Origin: a virus
Length of the DNA stretch: 64,000 bases
Strand: one strand, 5' to 3'
IMG/VR virus record: IMGVR_UViG_3300029358_000325
Location: 1-64,000 of that record
Shown: positions 20,255 through 48,261 of the stretch, piece by piece
How positions within the stretch are numbered: position 1 is the stretch's first letter
Layout: each line of letters begins with the position of its first letter
Notes under the pieces: model-generated
What the model saw: the letters and a program-made list of their open reading frames with translations, nothing else
The model's database searches: none
What the model was told of the DNA's origin: nothing
Translations under genes and position numbers: made by a program

Positions 20255-21586
20255 TTAGCCGTAGCTTACTTCGTTCTTATCATCTCGGAATCGTACAAAC
20301 GTCGGGAATTGCAGAGACTCAAGGCCAGTCTTTTTGTCCATCGTGACCTCTTTGTACTTACATTCCACAATCTTACCGATGTAATTATCGGGATTCGCCC
20401 ACACAGCAGCTCTCGTAGCATCATCAAAACCGGAACCAACACGAAGTTCGTTACCCTTGTAGTCAACAACAAGAGCGCCCATCGTACCAGCCAGACGGTT
20501 CTGACCTTCCTCAATCGCTGTGATTCGCAGATCGACCGTATAGAATCGCTTGATTTTGAGACATCCGTTGTGACGAGCCCGGCGATAAGGGACATCCGTG
20601 TTCAACATAAGACCTTCCCAATCGTGTTCGACAGCATAATCAAGCCACTTCGGAATCACACTCTGGTCAGTACCTTCATATACCATTGGAACAATTTCAA
20701 TATTCTCAAGGTGCTTGCGAGTAATCTCTGCGCGAAGACAATTTATCCCAATACGGCGAATTTTATATGGGATAGTACACTTTCCACGGTCGAACTCTAC
20801 AACAGGAATCACATCAAAAATCACAAATTTGATTCCAGTCTTGTCCTTGTTATCAGAATTAAGTAGGCCAGTGCCATAACGAAAAGCCTCTCCGTCCGAC
20901 ATTCTTTCTGGGTTCTTGTAGATCAGCTCACCATCAAACACCCACGCATCTCGCCTTGAGGCGTCTTCGTCGTATAGAGCGAGCAGATCATTCTTTATAT
21001 GGTCGAGCCCTTTAAACTTCTGAGCCTGCCGAGAGATGAGCTCGCCTTTATACATGGTGCCCCTATTGCCATTCATCTTCTGGCTCAAACTGAACCAAAT
21101 GCCATCCTTCAGCTTTACCTTATCAATCGGATATCCCTGCTGGACCTCCCAGACTGGAATAATCTCTTCGCCGTACACTTTATTGATGGTCGCTGCCTCG
21201 ACTCCAATCGGCAAGTTCTTAGTGAACAGTCGCTTCAGAAACTCTTCGTATTCAGGATTTTTATGTAAATAATTCTGGATTGTTACAATGGATGCATCAG
21301 AGCCAGTATTATGCCCAGCACCCATAATATAAAGGTATCCGCAGCTGAGATACTGAATATCGATATCAGGCTTTGCCGTTACCTTCTTGTTGATCTTTGC
21401 ATCAGACAGGCCAGTCACAATCGCTGGGTCAAGCAGGAATTTGAAGAATGCCATTAGCTCGTCAGCTTCATCTCCAAAATCCTTACGTGCATCCAACAAA
21501 ATGCGGGTCTTGTCCGTCTTTTTCTTTGCTTTCTGCAATGCCTTAACCATCGCATTAAGCTTACCTATGAGCTCTTTATCTGTCAT
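20255..21586 (-). CDS. lig: ATP-dependent DNA ligase.
   Basis: Nucleotidyltransferase motifs are present. Motif I is the K-x-N-G variant (SQKMNGNRG). Motif III is WVFDGELIY, motif IV is DWEGLMLN, and motif V is CLKIKRF. The conserved 21-bp motif plus an AAGGAGG SD sit upstream. Confidence 0.75.
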   Translation of the reverse strand: MTDKELIGKLNAMVKALQKAKKKTDKTRILLDARKDFGDEADELMAFFKFLLDPAIVTGLSDAKINKKVTAKPDIDIQYLSCGYLYIMGAGHNTGSDASIVTIQNYLHKNPEYEEFLKRLFTKNLPIGVEAATINKVYGEEIIPVWEVQQGYPIDKVKLKDGIWFSLSQKMNGNRGTMYKGELISRQAQKFKGLDHIKNDLLALYDEDASRRDAWVFDGELIYKNPERMSDGEAFRYGTGLLNSDNKDKTGIKFVIFDVIPVVEFDRGKCTIPYKIRRIGINCLRAEITRKHLENIEIVPMVYEGTDQSVIPKWLDYAVEHDWEGLMLNTDVPYRRARHNGCLKIKRFYTVDLRITAIEEGQNRLAGTMGALVVDYKGNELRVGSGFDDATRAAVWANPDNYIGKIVECKYKEVTMDKKTGLESLQFPTFVRFRDDKNEVSYG

Positions 21587-39188: not shown

Positions 39189-40658
39189 TTATCCTCTTTG
39201 CTTTTCTGGAAAATGCTTCTTAGTTACTGCAACGCAAAAGCTATCAATTTCTGACCCCCAAATGGCAGTACCTTCACCATATGTGCTTTGAAATACTAAC
39301 GGAAAGCCGCCGATCCCATCGAAGAGGCTACCAAGAGTAGGATTCTCACCGATATACGGTTTCATCTTCTGAAAAATCCAATACCATTGCGGTAATGCGA
39401 TTGAATTGCCGAGTGCCTTATAACGAACTGCGTCAGAAGTTTTATGCTTCTTTTCGTTCTCATCAATCCAGTCACCGATATCAGTCCATCCGTCAGGGAA
39501 ACCCTGTAACCGTTCATCCTCCAAAGGAGTCAAGCGGCGAACAATCCATCGTAGATTCTTCGTTTCCTTCTCTGCAATCAGGTCAGTAGCGTCCTTATAA
39601 TCACGAGATTTCATCGTGCTGGCGTGTTCACTTTCCTTGTACTCACCAATGCGTTGCATTGCAAAGGCTTTCTTTTCAACGACCAGCGGCATATTATTAC
39701 CGCCCGTTCCCCACTGAGCAGTACAAGTCGGACTTGTATCACCCTGCTGAGTGTATCGAGCGTCCTGACTGTGACTCTCAAATACCACCGGCGAAATCTT
39801 TTGTTTTAAATTATGTAAGGATGGATTTTCTGCCAAGCAAATTAGTGTCTGGTCTTGCAACGTAGAAATCGTTGCGCTCAATTCAGTTTGAACTAGAGCG
39901 CCTTTACCGCCACCTTCACATCCAGAGCGGATTTTTAGAGTGTAGGCTGCAGGTTCTGCGAATCGAGCCGAAGTCTCTCGATGGTCTGACTCCAATACTC
40001 GTCCAATTCCTTCTCTTCCAGACCTTCTTGTTCCTTCACTTTCTGCACCACCTGTGACAGAGTTCCTGGATTCCACCATTCGATCATATCCAGCAACGCT
40101 TGCTTCAGGAGTTCGGGCAAAGGTTTTCCACGCCGGGATGCTCTCACAAGAATCCCCTGACATGCTCGTGCGCTCAAATAGAATTTCTGAGGCACGTTGT
40201 CCTCCAAAATCCATGACAAGCGCGATTCTCTGGCGGCGCTGGGCGACTCCCCAGTATTTAGCGTCGAACAATCTCCATGCAAGAGACCATCCATTACCGG
40301 AAATCGCTCCAGATTTTGCCCACTTTCCGTTCTTTCCTGAAGGTCGAGGAATTGAAACATCTGGCTCGACAATGCGTGCAAATCTTTCCAACACACATCT
40401 GAAGTCTTCACCTTTGCTTGAGCTGAAAGCACCTCTGACATTTTCCCAGATTGCGAATTTTGGATATTCTCCATTAGTGGCCTCCCTCATTTCTGTAATC
40501 ACACGAATCATTTCAAGGAACAATCCAGAGCGTTCACCAGCCAAACCTTCACGTTTACCGGCCTGACTCAAATCTTGGCATGGACTGCCTCCTGTGATAC
40601 AGGAAACCGGTTCAATCTGCCCTCCATGAAGTTGTGTGATATCTCCGTAATGCTTCAG
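39189..40658 (-). CDS. dcm: DNA (cytosine-5)-methyltransferase with circularly permuted motif order. Motifs III through X come first, then I and II. The start is non-canonical, either a CTG or a frameshift.
   Basis: In protein order: GDITQ (motif III), GGSPCQDLSQAGKREG (motif IV), ENVRG (motif VI), QRRQRI (motif VIII), GNSIALP (motif X), then MKPYIGENPTLGSLFDGIGGF (motif I) and GSEIDSFCVAVTKKHF (motif II) at the C-terminus. The frame is open from a stop at 40662-40664. The first in-frame start is a CTG at 40656-40658, 7 nt after an AGGAGG SD. An out-of-frame ATG lies at 40665. Confidence 0.55.
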   Translation of the reverse strand: MKHYGDITQLHGGQIEPVSCITGGSPCQDLSQAGKREGLAGERSGLFLEMIRVITEMREATNGEYPKFAIWENVRGAFSSSKGEDFRCVLERFARIVEPDVSIPRPSGKNGKWAKSGAISGNGWSLAWRLFDAKYWGVAQRRQRIALVMDFGGQRASEILFERTSMSGDSCESIPAWKTFARTPEASVAGYDRMVESRNSVTGGAESEGTRRSGREGIGRVLESDHRETSARFAEPAAYTLKIRSGCEGGGKGALVQTELSATISTLQDQTLICLAENPSLHNLKQKISPVVFESHSQDARYTQQGDTSPTCTAQWGTGGNNMPLVVEKKAFAMQRIGEYKESEHASTMKSRDYKDATDLIAEKETKNLRWIVRRLTPLEDERLQGFPDGWTDIGDWIDENEKKHKTSDAVRYKALGNSIALPQWYWIFQKMKPYIGENPTLGSLFDGIGGFPLVFQSTYGEGTAIWGSEIDSFCVAVTKKHFPEKQRG

Positions 40659-40676
40659 TTTTCATTCCTCCTTTTA

Positions 40677-40697
40677 GTATCCTGTGTTATATAGCTA
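40677..40697 (-). promoter_or_regulatory. Conserved 21-bp motif, copy 5. It lies directly upstream of the SD and start region of the permuted MTase.
   Basis: The coding strand reads TAGCTATATAACACAGGATAC, followed by TAAAAGGAGG. Confidence 0.45.
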
Positions 40698-40800
40698 AAC
40701 CCCTAAAAATGAGCGAAAAATAATAGACGTATTAACGTCATATTATTCATTCACTTATAAAACAAAAGTTCTAGCAGATTTTATGTATGCCCTATCGGGC

Positions 40801-40876
40801 TGGTGGAATAGTCGAGATTTGAACTCGTGTCTGACAATTATAAGTTGTCGGCTCTAACCAGCTGAGCTACTATTCC
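40801..40876 (-). tRNA. tRNA-Ile, anticodon UAU.
   Basis: On the reverse complement, the acceptor stem is GGAATAG/CTATTCC, the D stem GCTC/GAGC, and the anticodon stem GACAA/TTGTC with loop CTTATAA. T loop TTCAAAT, discriminator A, CCA encoded. Confidence 0.65.
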
Positions 40877-40902
40877 ATATAAACGCCAACTTTCGTCGGC
40901 GC

Positions 40903-40975
40903 GATGCCAGTGGAGGGATCGAACCTCATCTCTCGGTGTTTCCGAGCGCTTTTACCATTAAGCTATCCAGCCGTA
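40903..40975 (-). pseudogene. Degenerate tRNA-like element. D and T arms are intact; the anticodon loop and acceptor pairing are aberrant.
   Basis: The reverse complement has D stem GCTT/AAGC with loop AATGGTAA and a T arm GAGGTTCGATCCCTC. The anticodon stem CTCGG/CCGAG encloses only 5 nt (AAACA). No 7-bp acceptor pairing can be drawn and no CCA is encoded. Confidence 0.35.
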
Positions 40976-41103
40976 TACCTCAGAATTTAATTCCTACTAT
41001 CAAAGCTACGTCGCGTTCCAATATGATCACTCTTGGCAACCATGTCGTAACATATAGGTTCCTTTCGGCTCTGAGCAACCGGTGCAGCGTCAGGGGCTGC
41101 GTG

Positions 41104-41179
41104 TGGAGCGACTGACGGGGGACGATCTCGCAACATTCAGATTGGAAATCTGACGCTCTACCAATTGAACTACAGTCGC
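41104..41179 (-). tRNA. tRNA-Gly, anticodon UCC.
   Basis: Acceptor GCGACTG/CAGTCGC, D arm TAGTTCAATTGGTAGAGC, and a perfect anticodon stem TCAGA/TCTGA with loop TTTCCAA. Discriminator U, CCA encoded. The T loop is non-canonical (ATCGTCC). Confidence 0.6.
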
Positions 41180-41360
41180 ATAAGAACCAACCTAGCAACT
41201 GGCATCACTAGGCTGGGATACTCGGCTTACAAAGGCACGCTGCACTCTTTCGGGCGAGCCGAGAATAACGCACATGAAAAATTTCGTTAGCCCATTTCGG
41301 GGTGGTATCTCGCACAGGCGCAGCCGGATTTGACCGCTAAAAATCCTACCCATACGAGAT

Positions 41361-41436
41361 TGGAGCAACCAACGGGACTCGAACCCGCCCTCTCTGCTTG
41401 GAAGGCAGATGTGCTAACCACTAACACCATAGCTGC
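41361..41436 (-). tRNA. tRNA-Gly, anticodon UCC (second, divergent copy).
   Basis: Acceptor GCAGCTA/TGGTTGC with G-U pairs. Anticodon stem TCTGC/GCAGA with loop CTTCCAA. T arm GCGGGTTCGAGTCCCGT. Discriminator U, CCA encoded. Confidence 0.55.
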
Positions 41437-41543
41437 ACAATCACCCAGCTTACAAAGCACTACTGCACCATCACTGGCGAGCCGGGAATAATAGTGGCAG
41501 TCAAAGGAGATCAACAAAACGGTACGCAACCATTCTATGACCG

Positions 41544-41625
41544 TGGTGCGGATAGTGGGCATCGAACCCACACGCCGAAGCACCAGATCCTAAATCTGGC
41601 GTGTCTGCCACTCCACCATATCCGC
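41544..41625 (-). tRNA. tRNA-Leu, anticodon UAG (type II).
   Basis: Acceptor GCGGATA/TATCCGC. Anticodon stem CCAGA/TCTGG with loop TTTAGGA. Long variable arm with a GC-TTCG-GC hairpin. T arm GTGGGTTCGATGCCCAC. Discriminator A, CCA encoded. Confidence 0.7.
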
Positions 41626-41630
41626 ATAAA

Positions 41631-41701
41631 TTGCGCCAACAGGGGTCGAACCTGTGATGGAGGAGTCAAAGTCCTCTGCCTTACCGCTTGGCGATGGCGC
41701 A
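41631..41701 (-). tRNA. tRNA-Gln, anticodon UUG.
   Basis: U1-A72 acceptor TGCGCCA/TGGCGCA. D arm TCGCCAAGCGGTAAGGCA, as in bacterial tRNA-Gln. Anticodon stem GAGGA/TCCTC with loop CTTTGAC. T arm ACAGGTTCGACCCCTGT. No CCA encoded. Confidence 0.7.
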
Positions 41702-41788
41702 TCATATACCCAGCTTACTACGTCACACTGCTCCGTTTCCAGAGAGCTGGGAATAATGTGAATGAAAATTCTACATACCCTTTCGGAC

Positions 41789-41864
41789 TGGCCTGAGCGA
41801 CAAGATTTGAACTTGCGGTCCCCTGTTCCCAAAACAGGTGCGATACCAACTTCGCTACGCCCAG
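41789..41864 (-). tRNA. tRNA-Pro, anticodon UGG.
   Basis: C1-G72 acceptor CTGGGCG/CGCTCAG. D stem GCGA/TCGC. Anticodon stem CCTGT/ACAGG with loop TTTGGGA. T loop TTCAAAT. CCA encoded. Confidence 0.7.
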
Positions 41865-41871
41865 ATATAAA

Positions 41872-41954
41872 TGCGCCCGGCGGGACTTGAACCCGCACGC
41901 CATCTCTGGCAGAAGATCTTAAGTCTCCTGTGTCTGCGATTCCACCACGGGCGC
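41872..41954 (-). tRNA. tRNA-Leu, anticodon UAA (type II).
   Basis: Acceptor GCGCCCG/CGGGCGC. Anticodon stem GGAGA/TCTTC with loop CTTAAGA. Long variable arm GCCAGAGATGGC. T arm GCGGGTTCAAGTCCCGC. Discriminator A, no CCA encoded. Confidence 0.65.
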
Positions 41955-42154
41955 ATATAAAAGAAGATCAGAAACAGCCAACCATTCGTTTTACATTCTA
42001 GTTTTCTGACGAACCGAAGAGTATTTATCCGATAGCTAGTCGGCTTACACCTTATTTCTCTTCTTGTCTGGCTTGACATCCTTTACCGGTATGACGTCTT
42101 TCCGGTCGCCAATGTACGGCCAATCCCCGAACGAGCTAGAACAACTGATCTTCA

Positions 42155-42239
42155 TGGTAGGGATAATCGGATTTGAACCGATACGTCTTTCGACACTTGA
42201 GTTTGAATCAAGCGTGGCTGCCAATTTCACCATATCCCC
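42155..42239 (-). tRNA. tRNA-Leu, anticodon CAA (type II).
   Basis: Acceptor GGGGATA/TATCCCT. Anticodon stem CTTGA/TCAAG with loop TTCAAAC. Long variable arm GTGTCGAAAGACGT. T arm ATCGGTTCAAATCCGAT. Discriminator A, CCA encoded. Confidence 0.65.
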
Positions 42240-42356
42240 ATATCGCCGGTCTTTCCCGGCTGTCAGCCCCGCGCAGGGCATTTTCGGAGGAAGAAATACC
42301 ACGATATTTCGTTAATTATTTTGACGAAAATCACGATAAAATGTCTATTTTTTAAT

Positions 42357-44576
42357 TTAGCTCTTCTGCTGACTTGCGTAGAACTCATTCCGCAGCTGAA
42401 TAATACCCTTCTTGCAGAAAGACTCTTGATCTTTCTCTCGTTGTTCACGCATCCAACCATAGAACAGGTTATCCTCGGCAGTAAACAACTTTGCGGTATT
42501 TTCATAATAGCCACGTTTTTGAACGCTCTGCATGACACCACGCAAGAACTTCCAGTGCTTATAATACGGAAGCTTCAGCTTAAACATGAAATTATTGCTG
42601 TCTCGCAAAACAAAGCCTTCAACGTGTTCAAAACCATGATGCAGATAGTTCTCGTTCATGACTTCTTCGTACCAAGGATAGAATTCACTCCAGTTCTCAA
42701 AGGTTTTAACCTTCTCCTTAATCTGCAGATGACACTTCTCGGCTACACGCTTCAAATCATCATAATCCATTACACTGAAATTCATATCATTTGCAATAAT
42801 ATCCAGCAAAACAATGTGCGGTTTCTTATATTCGATGATATGTGCATCATTCACAGGATCAATCACCTCGAAGATGATGGAGCCATTCTCTTTTGCAACT
42901 TCTTTCAGATTCTTACGATCTTCATCAGAAGTCGTATCCATGAGAATCTTTCGGAACATATCTGCAAAAGGCCCATCAGGAGTGGATTTACTTGCAATGA
43001 ACAGACCATCCTGTTCTGCATCATACGAAATGATACCAAGAAATCCGTTCTCTTTTAGATATGCAGTCACCGGGAACTTCAAAGTGTTCTGTAGGTTTCC
43101 AATTCTCGTTTCATTCCGCTCATCAACCGCAAAGAACTTATCATAGCTTCGAGCTACAATCTTATTCGTCTTTGTGTTAATGAACAACCCTCTTGCTTTG
43201 GTAGAAACCTCATCCCAGTGCTTCTTATAAAATGCTTCACGAGAGAAGTTGAAAGAAGAAATATCTCCGAATCGCTTCTCAAACACATATTTGCTTTGAC
43301 GCATCTTACTAACAAGTTCTGCGTTATCGAACTCAGTTTTCATTTCAACGGCAGTTTCAGTCTTTGGCTCCTCTTTTCGGAATACATCATTCTTGGTTTC
43401 TACGCATTTGATAGGCTGACCGTGTTCAAGCTCCACACAACGAAGATATCCACCAAACTCGATTTTGCCTTCAAGATTGTAGCACCGATGACCCATATCA
43501 ATAGGAACATCCTGTACATTTCGATGGCCGAAGATCTGAATATAGCTATCCGGCATCGACTTTTCCCAAGACTCAGCCACGGTCAGTATATCAGGATAGC
43601 GGCCTACGCCTTTAATCATCTGATCCGCAGACACGAACGGAAGAAAATAAGGAAGATAGCTCAGACCACCGTGACTTACGAAATACCGCTTACCATCATA
43701 CTCAAAGTAGACACACTGGCCGACTCTGGAATAGATCTTACGAGCAGTGTTCTTGTCAATACCGGCTTTAAAGAGCTGCGGACTAGTGTAGTTTGCAAAC
43801 TCTTCACTTTGAACCGGTTTATCATGCCCCCACTTGTTCAGCCAATGCTCGTGGTTCCCTTCCAAAAGGATCACATTCTTGCGGTTGTTATTTACAACAT
43901 CACACAAGAACTTGAATACCTCAACGTTTTCGATGCCACGATCGAGATAATCACCAACGAAGATATAAAGCTCGTCGTCCTTCATCTCACCAAGGTATTC
44001 ACTCAAGCAGGTATAGCAGCCATGAATATCACCGATGATATGTATCTTTTTCCACTGGTTAAAGTCATTCGGGCAGTAGTTCAAATCGGACATCACATCC
44101 GTAGTAGAAGGAAGAACTGTCACGCCAGAAGGAACTTTTTGAGTAGCAAACCGAGCGTACATCTTATCAATAGCCGCTTCAGGAACTCGCTTTAGCCATT
44201 CTCTCTGAGCGTTTCTTCGTTTGCATTCCTCGATCGGAAGGTCCGTCATATCAATAACATACATCCGATAACGATACTGTTTTGCAAGATTCTTATAACA
44301 ATTCATTTCGACCGTCTTGGAATTCGTTGCATCAATCACAGTAAACTCGCCATGGCTCATCCGCACCTCAAGCAGTTTGAAAAGCATCTCCCATACAACA
44401 TCATCATTCTGCTGAGAAATCTCCATCTGCCCATCAGGTGTTTCCTGTGCGCTCTGGCACATAAGGCGAAGTGTATCAGCACTCAATACGTACTGCTCAA
44501 GATTATGCTCTTTAATATAGGTGGACTTCCCGCAACCGGGTGCTCCACGGAACAGTAAAAGTGTTCTCATCTGCAT
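42357..44576 (-). CDS. pnkP: Pnkp-like trifunctional RNA repair enzyme: 5'-OH polynucleotide kinase, metallophosphoesterase-type 2',3'-phosphatase, and a ligase-like nucleotidyltransferase.
   Basis: N-terminal P-loop kinase LLLFRGAPGCGKSTYIKEH. Central calcineurin-like domain with IIGDIHGCY, FVGDYLDRGIENVE, LLEGNHE and FGHRN. The C-terminal domain has a K-x-x-G motif (STKARGLFINTKTNKIVARSYDKFF). The domain order matches bacterial Pnkp. It is preceded by a terminator, the 21-bp motif and an SD. Confidence 0.6.
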   Translation of the reverse strand: MQMRTLLLFRGAPGCGKSTYIKEHNLEQYVLSADTLRLMCQSAQETPDGQMEISQQNDDVVWEMLFKLLEVRMSHGEFTVIDATNSKTVEMNCYKNLAKQYRYRMYVIDMTDLPIEECKRRNAQREWLKRVPEAAIDKMYARFATQKVPSGVTVLPSTTDVMSDLNYCPNDFNQWKKIHIIGDIHGCYTCLSEYLGEMKDDELYIFVGDYLDRGIENVEVFKFLCDVVNNNRKNVILLEGNHEHWLNKWGHDKPVQSEEFANYTSPQLFKAGIDKNTARKIYSRVGQCVYFEYDGKRYFVSHGGLSYLPYFLPFVSADQMIKGVGRYPDILTVAESWEKSMPDSYIQIFGHRNVQDVPIDMGHRCYNLEGKIEFGGYLRCVELEHGQPIKCVETKNDVFRKEEPKTETAVEMKTEFDNAELVSKMRQSKYVFEKRFGDISSFNFSREAFYKKHWDEVSTKARGLFINTKTNKIVARSYDKFFAVDERNETRIGNLQNTLKFPVTAYLKENGFLGIISYDAEQDGLFIASKSTPDGPFADMFRKILMDTTSDEDRKNLKEVAKENGSIIFEVIDPVNDAHIIEYKKPHIVLLDIIANDMNFSVMDYDDLKRVAEKCHLQIKEKVKTFENWSEFYPWYEEVMNENYLHHGFEHVEGFVLRDSNNFMFKLKLPYYKHWKFLRGVMQSVQKRGYYENTAKLFTAEDNLFYGWMREQREKDQESFCKKGIIQLRNEFYASQQKS

Positions 44577-44591
44577 CTCCCTTTCTAATAG

Positions 44592-44612
44592 GTATCCTGT
44601 GTTATATAGTTA
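44592..44612 (-). promoter_or_regulatory. Conserved 21-bp motif, copy 6. It sits between a hairpin terminator and the Pnkp SD-ATG.
   Basis: The coding strand reads TAACTATATAACACAGGATAC, then CTATTAGAAAGGGAGATGCAGATG. Confidence 0.45.
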
Positions 44613-44625
44613 GCATGTTAAAATG

Positions 44626-44650
44626 AAGGGGCCGAAGCCCCCTGTTTTTA
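44626..44650 (-). terminator. Rho-independent-type hairpin terminator. It could act in both directions.
   Basis: GGGGC-CGAA-GCCCC stem-loop flanked by T-runs on both strands. Immediately after the stop of 44648-45574. Confidence 0.5.
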
Positions 44651-45574
44651 ATTTTCATGGAAATATTCAACCCAACCTTTATATCCTTGCCGGAAACTAA
44701 GATAGGCAACTTTACTGCACTTTCTTCCGATAATGTCCGCAAGAGGACCTTTACCATTTCCGAAACTAAGTTCTGCAAGATTAAATTTTGGATGAGTTTT
44801 ACAGTAGTTATAAACCTTGATATACTCACAATTTCTGGCTAAATATCTTTGATCTAAGGTTTTTGAATGATGCCTTTTTTCGAGGATATCGTTCAACCTC
44901 GAAAAATAGACATGAATTGAAATTATAGACGTCTTTGGATCACTGTTTACACCGGGTTTATCCTTCGTTTTGCGTAGGATATAATCGCCATTCATGACAT
45001 AAAATGTTCTATAACCGCTCTTATTGGGGGCATCATACTGTTTCATCTCGTAACATTGCTTGATAATATCCATTAACCTTGCGTCAACATCAGTCTTATC
45101 AAGAACGGTATTAGATTCAAAATCCACATCGTTAATTGTTAGATTAGAAATCTCATCGGAAGTAAGACCAATCCAGTACAAAACAGCAATTACGTTCATA
45201 CGAATCTGATATGGCTCTTCGTACTTATTTAAGAAGTCAACAAATTCGTCAACCGACGCAAAATAACTGTCATTGTACATATCATCTGCGCTTACATCGC
45301 TCTCTGAAAAGTCAGCCAGATCATACATGCTTGTTTCGTTTTCACTTTTGATGTAGCCTGTGATTATTGACTTCACATTTTTAAACGAACGACTCGAGTT
45401 CACCCAATTATATTTGGCAAACATCTTTACGAAATCATCTTTTGTGAAGTCAAACAACTCATACCCACGCTCGGCCTCGTAATCCATGACGTGACGCATC
45501 GTCGATGCAACAAACTCACCGCTTCTATCAGAATACTTTTCGGCAAAAGCTTTGATTTTTTCTTCAGTAAGCAT
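44648..45574 (-). CDS. Hypothetical protein with weak resemblance to a degenerate tyrosine-recombinase fold.
   Basis: 308 aa. IRMNVIAVLYWIGLTSDEISNLTINDVDF resembles recombinase box I but lacks the catalytic Arg. Followed by a hairpin terminator. Confidence 0.25.
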   Translation of the reverse strand: MLTEEKIKAFAEKYSDRSGEFVASTMRHVMDYEAERGYELFDFTKDDFVKMFAKYNWVNSSRSFKNVKSIITGYIKSENETSMYDLADFSESDVSADDMYNDSYFASVDEFVDFLNKYEEPYQIRMNVIAVLYWIGLTSDEISNLTINDVDFESNTVLDKTDVDARLMDIIKQCYEMKQYDAPNKSGYRTFYVMNGDYILRKTKDKPGVNSDPKTSIISIHVYFSRLNDILEKRHHSKTLDQRYLARNCEYIKVYNYCKTHPKFNLAELSFGNGKGPLADIIGRKCSKVAYLSFRQGYKGWVEYFHEN

Positions 45575-45627
45575 AGTGGCACACTCCTTCTTATTATATG
45601 TAGTGTACCATTAAACCTTATAAAAAA

Positions 45628-46047
45628 TCAAGCAAATGCGGCAAAATTCTGAAATTCCATGGTATGTTGTACGCCGCTCAGGAATGCTGCAAGCAAAAAC
45701 GGTTCATCCTTGCATCTTGCCATTGCGATCATATTCATCTGACGCTCCGACAAGACACCAAGTTTTTTAATGAACTGTCCTTTGTTAAGTGTATCAGTCT
45801 CTTCACATAGAACGATACTATCAACCTCTAGGAAATCACAATCTTCCTTTGAGAGTAGAACATGAACCGGAGAGCGCTTGTATATTCTGGAAGACAACGG
45901 ATTCCCTTTAATTGTTGGACTAAAGAAGTTGCGCTTATTGTTGCTCGTCACAACGAACGGTCGAATACCGCGCTGCTGATGACCTGTCGCATTGGATAGA
46001 TCAACCAACCAAACCTCTCCGACCTTTGGGTCAATATTGTTGTCCAT
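45628..46047 (-). CDS. mazF: MazF/PemK-family endoribonuclease (toxin-like). No recognisable antitoxin partner.
   Basis: KVGEVWLVDLSNATGHQQRGIRPFVVTSNN fits the MazF/PemK N-terminal signature (G-x-I/V-x-x-V-D/F ... G-x-E-Q-x-G-x-R-P-x-V-V). GAGGAG SD. Confidence 0.55.
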   Translation of the reverse strand: MDNNIDPKVGEVWLVDLSNATGHQQRGIRPFVVTSNNKRNFFSPTIKGNPLSSRIYKRSPVHVLLSKEDCDFLEVDSIVLCEETDTLNKGQFIKKLGVLSERQMNMIAMARCKDEPFLLAAFLSGVQHTMEFQNFAAFA

Positions 46048-46083
46048 AGTCTTTCTCCTCTATAATAGTGTAGCTCCGTTCCA

Positions 46084-46104
46084 TAGCTATATTATACAGG
46101 ATAC
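46084..46104 (+). promoter_or_regulatory. Conserved 21-bp motif, copy 7, in inverted orientation. It lies 37 nt upstream of the mazF-like ATG but points the opposite way.
   Basis: The plus strand reads TAGCTATATTATACAGGATAC. Confidence 0.35.
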
Positions 46105-46138
46105 CTTTACAGAAGTCAATAGGTTTTCAAAAATATTT

Positions 46139-46465
46139 TTAGTGCCCGTACAACTCTGGATTCTCTGATACGAACACGCTGGTGTTATCGAATATCATCT
46201 CATACGCTTTCTCTTTATCGCCCGGCCTAAACTCAACCCTCCTTACTTCGTGACATTCTTGCCGCAACTCAATATGACTTTCGTTTCCAAAAAATCCAAT
46301 GCCTTTGACAATCCCATGCGTCTCTACGCCAATGTCGTCCATCTTTTTGCAGATCATGTGAACATCCACACCATTGCAAATAAAACAGACCCACACTCGC
46401 TTTTTTCTTATGTACTTCAAAAAGTTCTCAACCTGTATAACTCCCAAAACCTTTTTCTCACTCAT
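46139..46465 (-). CDS. Hypothetical protein. Cys/His-rich, not MazE-like.
   Basis: 108 aa. ORF track only. Confidence 0.25.
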   Translation of the reverse strand: MSEKKVLGVIQVENFLKYIRKKRVWVCFICNGVDVHMICKKMDDIGVETHGIVKGIGFFGNESHIELRQECHEVRRVEFRPGDKEKAYEMIFDNTSVFVSENPELYGH

Positions 46466-46589
46466 CGAAATACCGCCTTCCGATCACATAAACAACTTCC
46501 AAGATATATTATACACATCTTTTTGTTTTCGTCAATATGTACCACACCATTTTGTTGTGCTACTTTATCAAAATTTTAGATGATGCCAT

Positions 46590-47216
46590 TTACTCAGCAT
46601 CATCCACAACCAGCTTCGCGTCATAATAAAACCTGTGTGCGCCAAATTGCCCAGCAAAGGTTGCTCCGCGCTCGTGCCAACTGCCTGGAGCAGCCGCCGG
46701 GGTTACAAACCATTGAATAGGTTTGTCTGAAATCTTAGCGCCGTAATCAAACACCATAGACACAGCCAGTTCGTTCTCTGCCGTCACCTTCCTATTATAT
46801 AAGGAACTATAACCATACTTCTTAAAGACCTGCTGGATGGTTAGACTATCAAGTACAGCGGAATCATAAAGGCATTGGGCCACAGCCATCTGGCCTTCCA
46901 AACTGTCAGCACCTGCTTCACAAGCAACGATCTGCTCCGCAAGAGCACGTTCGTCATCAGTGAGTTTATGTTTGCCCTGACCAAAGTTTACAATCCGCAT
47001 CTCAGTAACGGTTTCTACAATGACTTCTGGCTCCTTTTCCTCTTGCTGCACTACACTCACTGCCGGAGGGCTATTATTATAAAGGTATGAATCACCATGA
47101 TTCTGAATTACCGGACTGATCTTCGATACAAGATTCCCCGCCAGCAGGCACATTATACACACAATAGCAATACTTTGCTCACGATTTATTAACAAATTAG
47201 AGTTAATAAGAATCAC
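46590..47216 (-). CDS. SleB/CwlJ-like cell wall hydrolase with an N-terminal membrane anchor.
   Basis: N-terminal hydrophobic segment IAIVCIMCLLAGNLV. The C-terminal LAEQIVACEAGADSLEGQMAVAQCLYDSAV resembles the SleB-type hydrolase core (AEArGE...GqxAVAxVixNR). Confidence 0.4.
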   Translation of the reverse strand: MILINSNLLINREQSIAIVCIMCLLAGNLVSKISPVIQNHGDSYLYNNSPPAVSVVQQEEKEPEVIVETVTEMRIVNFGQGKHKLTDDERALAEQIVACEAGADSLEGQMAVAQCLYDSAVLDSLTIQQVFKKYGYSSLYNRKVTAENELAVSMVFDYGAKISDKPIQWFVTPAAAPGSWHERGATFAGQFGAHRFYYDAKLVVDDAE

Positions 47217-47240
47217 TTCCTTTCAAAAATATTGGTTTTA

Positions 47241-47993
47241 TCAGATCTTTAAAGACTCCTCATTTACGGTCATCACAAGCTCGTTGACCCGCTTCCAATC
47301 AACATTGTCCGGCAGGTAAGTCTCGCTCTTGTCAACTGACAATCTGCTTTCATAGGCCGGAATCAGTTGCTGACGAATCTCTTTGTAATCATATTCACCG
47401 TTGCGAAGCTGCGTCAGGAAGTTATGATCATTGTCTCGATAGGTTTTAATTTCACCTTTTTCCAAGATGTCAAAGAGCATCAGGTATACACGAACTGCAT
47501 TCATTACCGTCTTGTGCATTTTCTTTGAATTATGGTAGATTGGATCTTTGTCTAATGTATCAGACTTCTGAATCAGCTTGCCTGCAAAACCTCCAAACGA
47601 GTAAATCACACGCTTTGAAAGGAATAGGTTTTTGTTGTCCATAAGTAGCTGCGTCATTGGGTTATAGCTAATAACGAGTTCATCGGCATTTCCTAACTGT
47701 TCCAGCATATTGGGATTTCCACTGCACATCAATTTCACAGCTTTGTTAAAGCTATAAATCGTTGTATCGGTCTGAGTGTCCACATAATGCTCAAACTCAC
47801 CGAGACCAAGAAGGTCTTCTTTTGAATTCAATGCTACACCTCGAATGTCAAGATCTGAGCCCTCAACATTTGTCCCGTAAGCATGACTGCCACCGACCGT
47901 TACGAACATCATATGCTTGCCAAGATGCTCATTCTCCCGAAGAAAACTATATTCTGGGAAGCATAACGCTCCAAGCAATTCATTTCTTGTCAT
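47241..47993 (-). CDS. Pol-beta-superfamily nucleotidyltransferase.
   Basis: GGSHAYGTNVEGSDLDIRGV is the G-S-x(9-13)-D-x-D nucleotidyltransferase signature. About 250 aa, similar in size to predicted standalone NTases. Confidence 0.5.
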   Translation of the reverse strand: MTRNELLGALCFPEYSFLRENEHLGKHMMFVTVGGSHAYGTNVEGSDLDIRGVALNSKEDLLGLGEFEHYVDTQTDTTIYSFNKAVKLMCSGNPNMLEQLGNADELVISYNPMTQLLMDNKNLFLSKRVIYSFGGFAGKLIQKSDTLDKDPIYHNSKKMHKTVMNAVRVYLMLFDILEKGEIKTYRDNDHNFLTQLRNGEYDYKEIRQQLIPAYESRLSVDKSETYLPDNVDWKRVNELVMTVNEESLKI

Positions 47994-48261
47994 AGAATCA
48001 CCTCTATTAGAACTTAGTTTTTATCAGATGTCTTTCCACCACTCGGAAATATCATCATCGTTAATTTCTTTCTTTGTTCCGACCTCACGAAAGCATTCGC
48101 AGATACTATCCCAAATTGCAATCACAAGATCACTACTTCTTTCAAGAGTATGCCCGAAGTAGTCCTTGTAATAAAGGTTAAGCATAAACGATTTTCCATT
48201 CATTCCATAAGTTGGAATTGGTTCATCAGCAACTTTAATCCACATACGGCCTCCTTAAATC

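What the first reader, a model, noticed from the sequence alone, without database searches (positions are those of the whole stretch)
42357..44576. Bacterial-Pnkp-type kinase-phosphatase-ligase encoded by a phage
The domain order is a P-loop kinase (GAPGCGKST), a binuclear metallophosphoesterase (GDIHG / GDYLDRG / GNHE), then a C-terminal K-x-x-G nucleotidyltransferase-like domain. This matches bacterial Pnkp, which normally partners with Hen1. It does not match the T4 Pnk HAD-phosphatase architecture. No Hen1-like methyltransferase is visible nearby, so the partner or ligation chemistry may differ.
Basis: partly seen in the sequence, partly recalled or inferred. Interest (0 to 1): 0.62.

Follow-up and report, generated by a model that had tools for sequence, protein, structure and literature searches.

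The report
Phage three-in-one RNA repair enzyme
This phage gene encodes one protein that joins an RNA 5'-kinase, a 3'-phosphatase and an RNA ligase, most likely to mend tRNAs or other RNAs cut by bacterial nucleases; it belongs to a large phage family that is already catalogued, and its ligase part resembles fungal tRNA ligase rather than bacterial Pnkp.

Summary
The ORF is real: 42357-44576, minus strand, 739 aa. All the quoted motifs are present, and the domain order is kinase, metallophosphoesterase, ligase.

- **Healing half:** this is the bacterial Pnkp type. The best solved matches are the Clostridium thermocellum Pnkp kinase and phosphatase, plus lambda phosphatase.
- **Hen1:** its absence is therefore expected.
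- **Adenylylated lysine:** the predicted residue is K508 (KENG, 145/145 conserved), not K460 of KARG.

The gene is a full-length member of PHROG 8238, annotated "RNA ligase". That architecture occurs in 113 sequenced phages and in hundreds of metagenomic clusters.

It most likely heals and seals 2',3'-cyclic-phosphate/5'-OH RNA breaks on its own. Eight tRNA genes lie directly downstream, and an RlaP nucleotidyltransferase and a MazF-like toxin lie upstream. These linkages are not general across the family.

Verdict: an ordinary new member of a known, biochemically uncharacterised family, with one point of interest, a Trl1-type ligase in phages.

The parts
42357..44576 (-). Whole gene: 739-aa kinase-phosphatase-ligase (KPL), stop codon included
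   Evidence: ORF. Pfam three-domain hit. PHROG 8238 end-to-end match, E 3.5e-227. AlphaFold2 model with mean pLDDT 90.3.
44097..44576 (-). Polynucleotide 5'-OH kinase domain (aa 1-160). P-loop GAPGCGKST is aa 11-19 (nt 44520-44546). Predicted general base is D34.
   Evidence: AAA_33 E 1.5e-22. The best solved match is the C. thermocellum Pnkp kinase: 4gp7 E 2e-7, Foldseek TM 0.74-0.77. K17/S18/D34/R37/T84/R121/R125/K129 align with CthPnk K21/S22/D38/R41/T80/R116/R120/R123. K17, D34 and R37 are conserved in 145/145.
43377..44069 (-). Binuclear metallophosphoesterase domain (aa 170-400): GDIHG, GDYLDRG, GNHE, H302, GH351R
   Evidence: Metallophos E 2.3e-15. Foldseek hits: lambda phosphatase 1g5b TM 0.73 and CthPnkp phosphatase 4j6o TM 0.65. 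D183, H185, D209, N241, H242 and H302 are 145/145 and H351 is 144/145.
43329..43370 (-). Flexible linker (aa 403-416) between the healing module and the ligase
   Evidence: The only segment with pLDDT <50 in the full-length model.
42570..43328 (-). RNA ligase adenylyltransferase domain (aa 417-669). Motif I is K508-E-N-G (K508 codon 43053-43055). Also E570, H579, EGFV 653-656, K666/K668.
42360..42569 (-). Helical C-terminal domain of the ligase (aa 670-739), Trl1/Rnl6 type, with invariant K676 and R679
43197..43199 (-). It is not the catalytic lysine.
   Evidence: K in 125, R in 17, T in 2 and H in 1 of 145 members, whereas A461-R462-G463 are invariant. The segment aligns with the 'ARGLF' segment of Trl1, upstream of motif I.
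40801..42239 (-). Cluster of 8 tRNA genes starting 117 nt downstream of the gene on the same strand: Leu-CAA, Leu-TAA, Pro-TGG, Gln-TTG, Leu-TAG, Gly-TCC x2, Ile-TAT
   Evidence: ARAGORN. Rfam tRNA hits of 52-64.5 bits. No terminator-like site lies between the gene and the first tRNAs.
44627..44643 (-). Terminator-like hairpin (GGGGCTTCGGCCCC plus a T-rich tail) immediately upstream of the gene. It separates the gene from the MazF-like/MrpR-like unit.
47241..47993 (-). RlaP-family (PF10127) nucleotidyltransferase, a likely accessory partner that restores lost 3' nucleotides
   Evidence: Pfam RlaP E 1.6e-18. phrog_388 E 4.9e-44. Biochemistry of the family is in PMC12776372. Present in only about 25 of 63 near-identical phages. 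It recurs next to KPL in 4 of 105 distant loci.
45628..46047 (-). PemK/MazF-like endoribonuclease toxin. Context only; it is not shown to be a functional partner.
   Evidence: PemK_toxin E 2.1e-19. phrog_1936 E 7.5e-22. Linked to KPL in all 63 close relatives but in only 12 of 105 distant loci.

Best explanation
The gene encodes a self-sufficient RNA 'heal-and-seal' enzyme.

1. The N-terminal P-loop kinase transfers a phosphate from an NTP to a 5'-OH RNA end. Predicted roles are K17/S18 for NTP-Mg binding, D34 as general base and R37 for positioning the acceptor.
2. The central two-metal phosphoesterase opens a 2',3'-cyclic phosphate and then removes the resulting monoester, leaving 2'-OH,3'-OH.
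3. The C-terminal ATP-dependent ligase is adenylylated on K508. It passes AMP to the new 5'-phosphate and joins it to the 3'-OH.

The ligase is of the fungal Trl1 (Rnl6) structural type and works without Hen1. The biological role is most likely repair of tRNAs, host or phage-encoded, and possibly other translation RNAs. The damage would come from metal-independent ribonucleases of host defence systems or of competing elements. RlaP is an optional helper that refills excised nucleotides.

Shown here: domain identities, intact catalytic residues, fold, family distribution and gene context. Inferred: every enzymatic activity, the substrate and the anti-defence role.
For: - Three Pfam domains in order.
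- The kinase aligns residue for residue with the essential residues of CthPnk.
- The metal ligands of the phosphoesterase are conserved in 144-145 of 145 members. H185 is the counterpart, by the GDxHG motif, of CthPnkp H189. An H189D change in CthPnkp stops the reaction at a 2'-PO4 end, and wild-type CthPnkp hands 2'-OH ends to T4 Rnl1. H185 is invariant, so full dephosphorylation is expected.
- Ligase motifs I, III, IV and V are invariant.
- High-confidence models: pLDDT 90.3 and 94.1.
- Context: 8 tRNA genes lie directly downstream. An RlaP gene lies 2.7 kb upstream. RlaP homologs sit immediately downstream of KPL in L074 and L083, which also carry 19 and 26 tRNA genes. Fusobacterium phage FNU2 has 5 tRNAs 0.9 kb downstream of its copy.
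- RlaP enzymes add 1-2 nucleotides to damaged RNA 3' ends.
- The family sits in phages and prophages of Firmicutes and Fusobacterium.
Against: - No activity has been measured for any member that I could find.
- No RNA target or host nuclease is known.
- Linkage to tRNA genes (31 of 105 loci), RlaP (4 of 105) and PemK (12 of 105) is facultative. Context therefore supports the role but does not prove it.
- The Trl1-type C-domain and two of the three Trl1 2'-phosphate ligands (H579 and, as lysine, K676) are conserved. This sits awkwardly with a phosphatase that should remove the 2'-phosphate.
- CthPnkp-type kinases also phosphorylate DNA.
- Some Staphylococcus Kayvirus-like phages carry split or truncated copies, so the function is dispensable in some hosts.
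Confidence: 0.72

Rival explanations
1. One reading: a genuine bacterial Pnkp (Rnl4-type ligase) whose Hen1 partner is encoded elsewhere or has been replaced.
For: The kinase-phosphatase-ligase order is the same as in Pnkp. The best kinase match is the CthPnkp kinase. TIGR04075 bacter_Pnkp gives a partial hit, E 3.1e-23.
Against: - TIGR04075 scores 81.9 bits against a cutoff of 750 and covers only the kinase-phosphatase part.
- The ligase domain gives no sequence hit to Pnkp-C even at E<=10.
- No Hen1-like methyltransferase was found among the 61 ORFs of the window scanned with Pfam. These include every minus-strand ORF of 200 aa or more.
Confidence: 0.03
2. A Trl1-like pathway in a phage. The ligase needs a 2'-phosphate at the 3'-OH end. 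It seals the transient 2'-PO4 intermediate made by the phosphoesterase and leaves a 2'-PO4 junction that a host Tpt1/KptA must remove.
For: - The ligase has the Rnl6 C-domain.
- Of the Trl1 sulfate/2'-PO4 ligands N150, H227, R334 and R337, the counterparts N510 (144/145), H579 (145/145) and K676 (145/145) are conserved, and R679 is also invariant.
- CthPnkp-type phosphoesterases pass through a 2'-phosphomonoester intermediate.
Against: - The R334 counterpart (position 673) is N in 74 and K in 55 of 145 members.
- H185, the counterpart of CthPnkp H189 that is needed for monoesterase activity, is invariant, so the 2'-phosphate should be removed.
- No Tpt1 was found in the 64-kb window.
- A lysine may not substitute for the bidentate arginine.
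Confidence: 0.12
3. The enzyme is the counterpart of the phage's own MazF-like toxin. It reverses or limits RNA cleavage caused by the neighbouring PemK/MazF endoribonuclease, for example by protecting phage tRNAs or transcripts during host shut-off.
For: - PemK lies 1.05 kb upstream on the same strand.
- The block 108-aa ORF, PemK, MrpR-like gene, KPL is invariant in 63 close relatives while the flanking genes vary.
- PemK homologs of 32-70% identity lie within 6 kb of KPL in 12 more distant loci, in several different arrangements.
- From general knowledge, MazF leaves the 2',3'-cyclic-phosphate/5'-OH ends that this enzyme should repair.
Against: - Only 12 of 105 distant loci show the linkage, and none of the isolate phages examined does.
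- A terminator-like hairpin separates the PemK unit from KPL, and PemK has its own near-consensus promoter and a candidate antitoxin ORF upstream.
- The conserved synteny may simply reflect one phage lineage.
Confidence: 0.08
4. The enzyme acts on DNA ends during phage replication or recombination, or matures the phage tRNA transcripts, rather than repairing damaged RNA.
For: The gene lies beside a replication and nucleotide-metabolism module: DnaE, RecD2-like, RecJ, primase, DNA ligase, NrdD, ThyX. CthPnkp-type kinases accept DNA 5'-OH ends.
Against: The phage has its own ATP-dependent DNA ligase at 20255-21586. The ligase domain belongs to the Rnl1/Trl1 lineage, whose characterised members join RNA ends. 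None of the 8 tRNA genes showed an intron.
Confidence: 0.05

Closest known systems
Clostridium thermocellum Pnkp (bacterial Pnkp/Hen1 RNA repair system, Rnl4 ligase)
   Same: Same domain order. The P-loop 5'-kinase is homologous, with all essential residues matched. The lambda-phosphatase-like binuclear 2',3'-phosphoesterase is also homologous.
Fungal tRNA ligase Trl1, ligase domain (Rnl6 clade; PDB 6n0t, 9qw7)
   Different: Trl1 has the order ligase, GTP-dependent kinase, 2H cyclic phosphodiesterase, and it keeps the 2'-phosphate. Here the order is kinase, metallophosphoesterase, ligase, and the phosphatase should remove the 2'-phosphate. The R334 counterpart is not conserved. The host is a bacteriophage, not a eukaryote.
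Bacteriophage T4 Pnkp + Rnl1 tRNA repair pathway
   Different: T4 uses two proteins. Its phosphatase is a HAD/DxDxT acylphosphatase. The Rnl1 C-domain, which confers tRNA specificity, is structurally different from the one here.
Pnkp1-Rnl-Hen1 complex (PDB 4xrp)
   Same: A kinase plus metallophosphatase healing protein works with a separate ligase. The kinase hit to Pnkp1 has E 1.7e-3.
Baculovirus AcNPV ORF86 Pnk/ligase (from memory, not tested here)
   Same: A single viral polypeptide that combines an Rnl1-lineage ligase with a kinase and a 3'-phosphatase.
   Different: As I recall, the order is ligase, kinase, HAD phosphatase, and the host is eukaryotic.

Membership tests
Bacterial Pnkp (Pnkp/Hen1 system; NCBIfam TIGR04075) | N-terminal P-loop polynucleotide 5'-kinase of the CthPnk type, with K21, S22, D38 and R41 | tested here: met
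   phmmer to 4gp7, E 2e-7, with K17/S18/D34/R37 aligned. Residue roles come from PMC3902929. Foldseek TM 0.74-0.77.
Bacterial Pnkp (Pnkp/Hen1 system; NCBIfam TIGR04075) | Central binuclear metallophosphoesterase (lambda-phosphatase-like) | tested here: met
   Pfam Metallophos E 2.3e-15. Foldseek hits: 1g5b TM 0.73 and 4j6o TM 0.65. Metal ligands are invariant or nearly so, 144-145 of 145.
Bacterial Pnkp (Pnkp/Hen1 system; NCBIfam TIGR04075) | C-terminal Rnl4-type adenylyltransferase domain, and a full-length match to the equivalog model | tested here: not met
Bacterial Pnkp (Pnkp/Hen1 system; NCBIfam TIGR04075) | Adjacent Hen1 methyltransferase that activates the ligase | tested here: not met
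   No Hen1 and no RNA methyltransferase was found among the 61 ORFs scanned with Pfam across the 64-kb window, or in the neighbourhoods of relatives. The rest of the roughly 135-kb genome was not examined.
Rnl6 clade (Trl1-type RNA ligase) | Adenylyltransferase domain with an Rnl1-like N sub-domain and motifs I, III, IV and V | tested here: met
   RNA_lig_T4_1 E 4e-41. phmmer to 9qw7, E 2.1e-18. K508, E570, EGFV and K666/K668 are invariant.
Rnl6 clade (Trl1-type RNA ligase) | Distinctive all-helical C-terminal domain. This is the feature that defines the clade (PMC6379707). | tested here: met
Rnl6 clade (Trl1-type RNA ligase) | His-Arg-Arg triad (CthLIG H227, R334, R337) that binds the 2'-phosphate | tested here: inconclusive
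   H579 is 145/145. The R337 counterpart is K676, 145/145. The R334 counterpart (position 673) is N in 74, K in 55 and other residues in 16 of 145 members. R679 is also invariant.
Rnl6 clade (Trl1-type RNA ligase) | Biochemical requirement for a 3'-OH,2'-PO4 end | not testable with these tools
   This needs ligation assays with pRNA2'p against pRNA-OH.
T4 Rnl1 family | Rnl1-type C-terminal tRNA-specificity domain | tested here: not met
PHROG 8238 ('RNA ligase' of phages of Firmicutes) | Full-length match to the family profile | tested here: met
   E 3.5e-227, residues 3-737 on profile positions 1-734 of 737. tblastn finds 113 phage records with at least 80% coverage.

The most novel reading that the evidence does not exclude
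The Trl1-type (Rnl6) ligase, described in the papers I could read as a fungal hallmark with a 'unique' C-domain, is in fact abundant in bacteriophages. The phage enzymes keep enough of the Trl1 2'-phosphate pocket (H579, K676, R679) to seal the 2'-PO4 intermediate made by their own phosphoesterase. That would create 2'-phosphate junctions in bacterial RNA. From my own knowledge, bacterial Tpt1/KptA enzymes have no known substrate, and this would supply one. It would also point to a phage or bacterial origin for the eukaryotic tRNA ligase domain.
Probability: 0.1. Interest if true: 0.75.

Novelty: new member of a known kind. Interest (0 to 1): 0.38.

Why it matters
As it stands, this is a routine member of a widespread phage family, and it adds one more likely counter-defence gene to an uncultured gut phage.

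Two points go beyond routine annotation. First, the family couples a bacterial Pnkp-type healing module to a Trl1-type ligase. That explains why no Hen1 is present, and databases that label such proteins 'Pnkp', 'AAA family ATPase' or plain 'RNA ligase' miss this. Second, a ligase fold presented as fungus-specific, and promoted as an antifungal target for that reason, has hundreds of diverse phage relatives. These relatives could be used to study how the 2'-phosphate requirement arose.

No member of the family has been characterised biochemically in the literature I could search. A single expression experiment would therefore define the activity of more than 600 sequence clusters.

Tried and rejected
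- **Known phage at DNA level.** A megablast of window 30000-54000 against 50,697 phage records found only two short matches to unannotated human-faecal contigs. The phage is uncultured.
- **Close relatives in species-representative genomes.** None were found. The profile search then found relatives of 44-51% identity, mainly in gut Clostridia (Lachnospiraceae, Oscillospiraceae) genomes and MAGs.
- **General functional coupling to the MazF-like toxin, RlaP, Band-7 or tRNA clusters.** In 105 loci with 55% KPL identity or less, the counts were PemK 12, RlaP 4, Band-7 5, and one or more tRNAs 31. I therefore dropped the idea of a fixed operon.
- **Extra fused domains in longer homologs (830-1044 aa).** These have the same three domains plus insertions, one of them a NUMOD/I-HmuI-like homing endonuclease.
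- **Literature.** I searched for a characterised member using the terms Rnl6, PF09511, Trl1-like, Twort/SPbeta RNA ligase, and metallophosphoesterase with Rnl1. None was found. The comparative-genomics survey of RNA repair systems that named RlaP (Burroughs and Aravind 2016) is not held in the library. I could not check whether it already describes this architecture, and I suspect it does.
- **Other structured RNAs around the gene.** An Rfam scan of 40400-48200 found only tRNAs.
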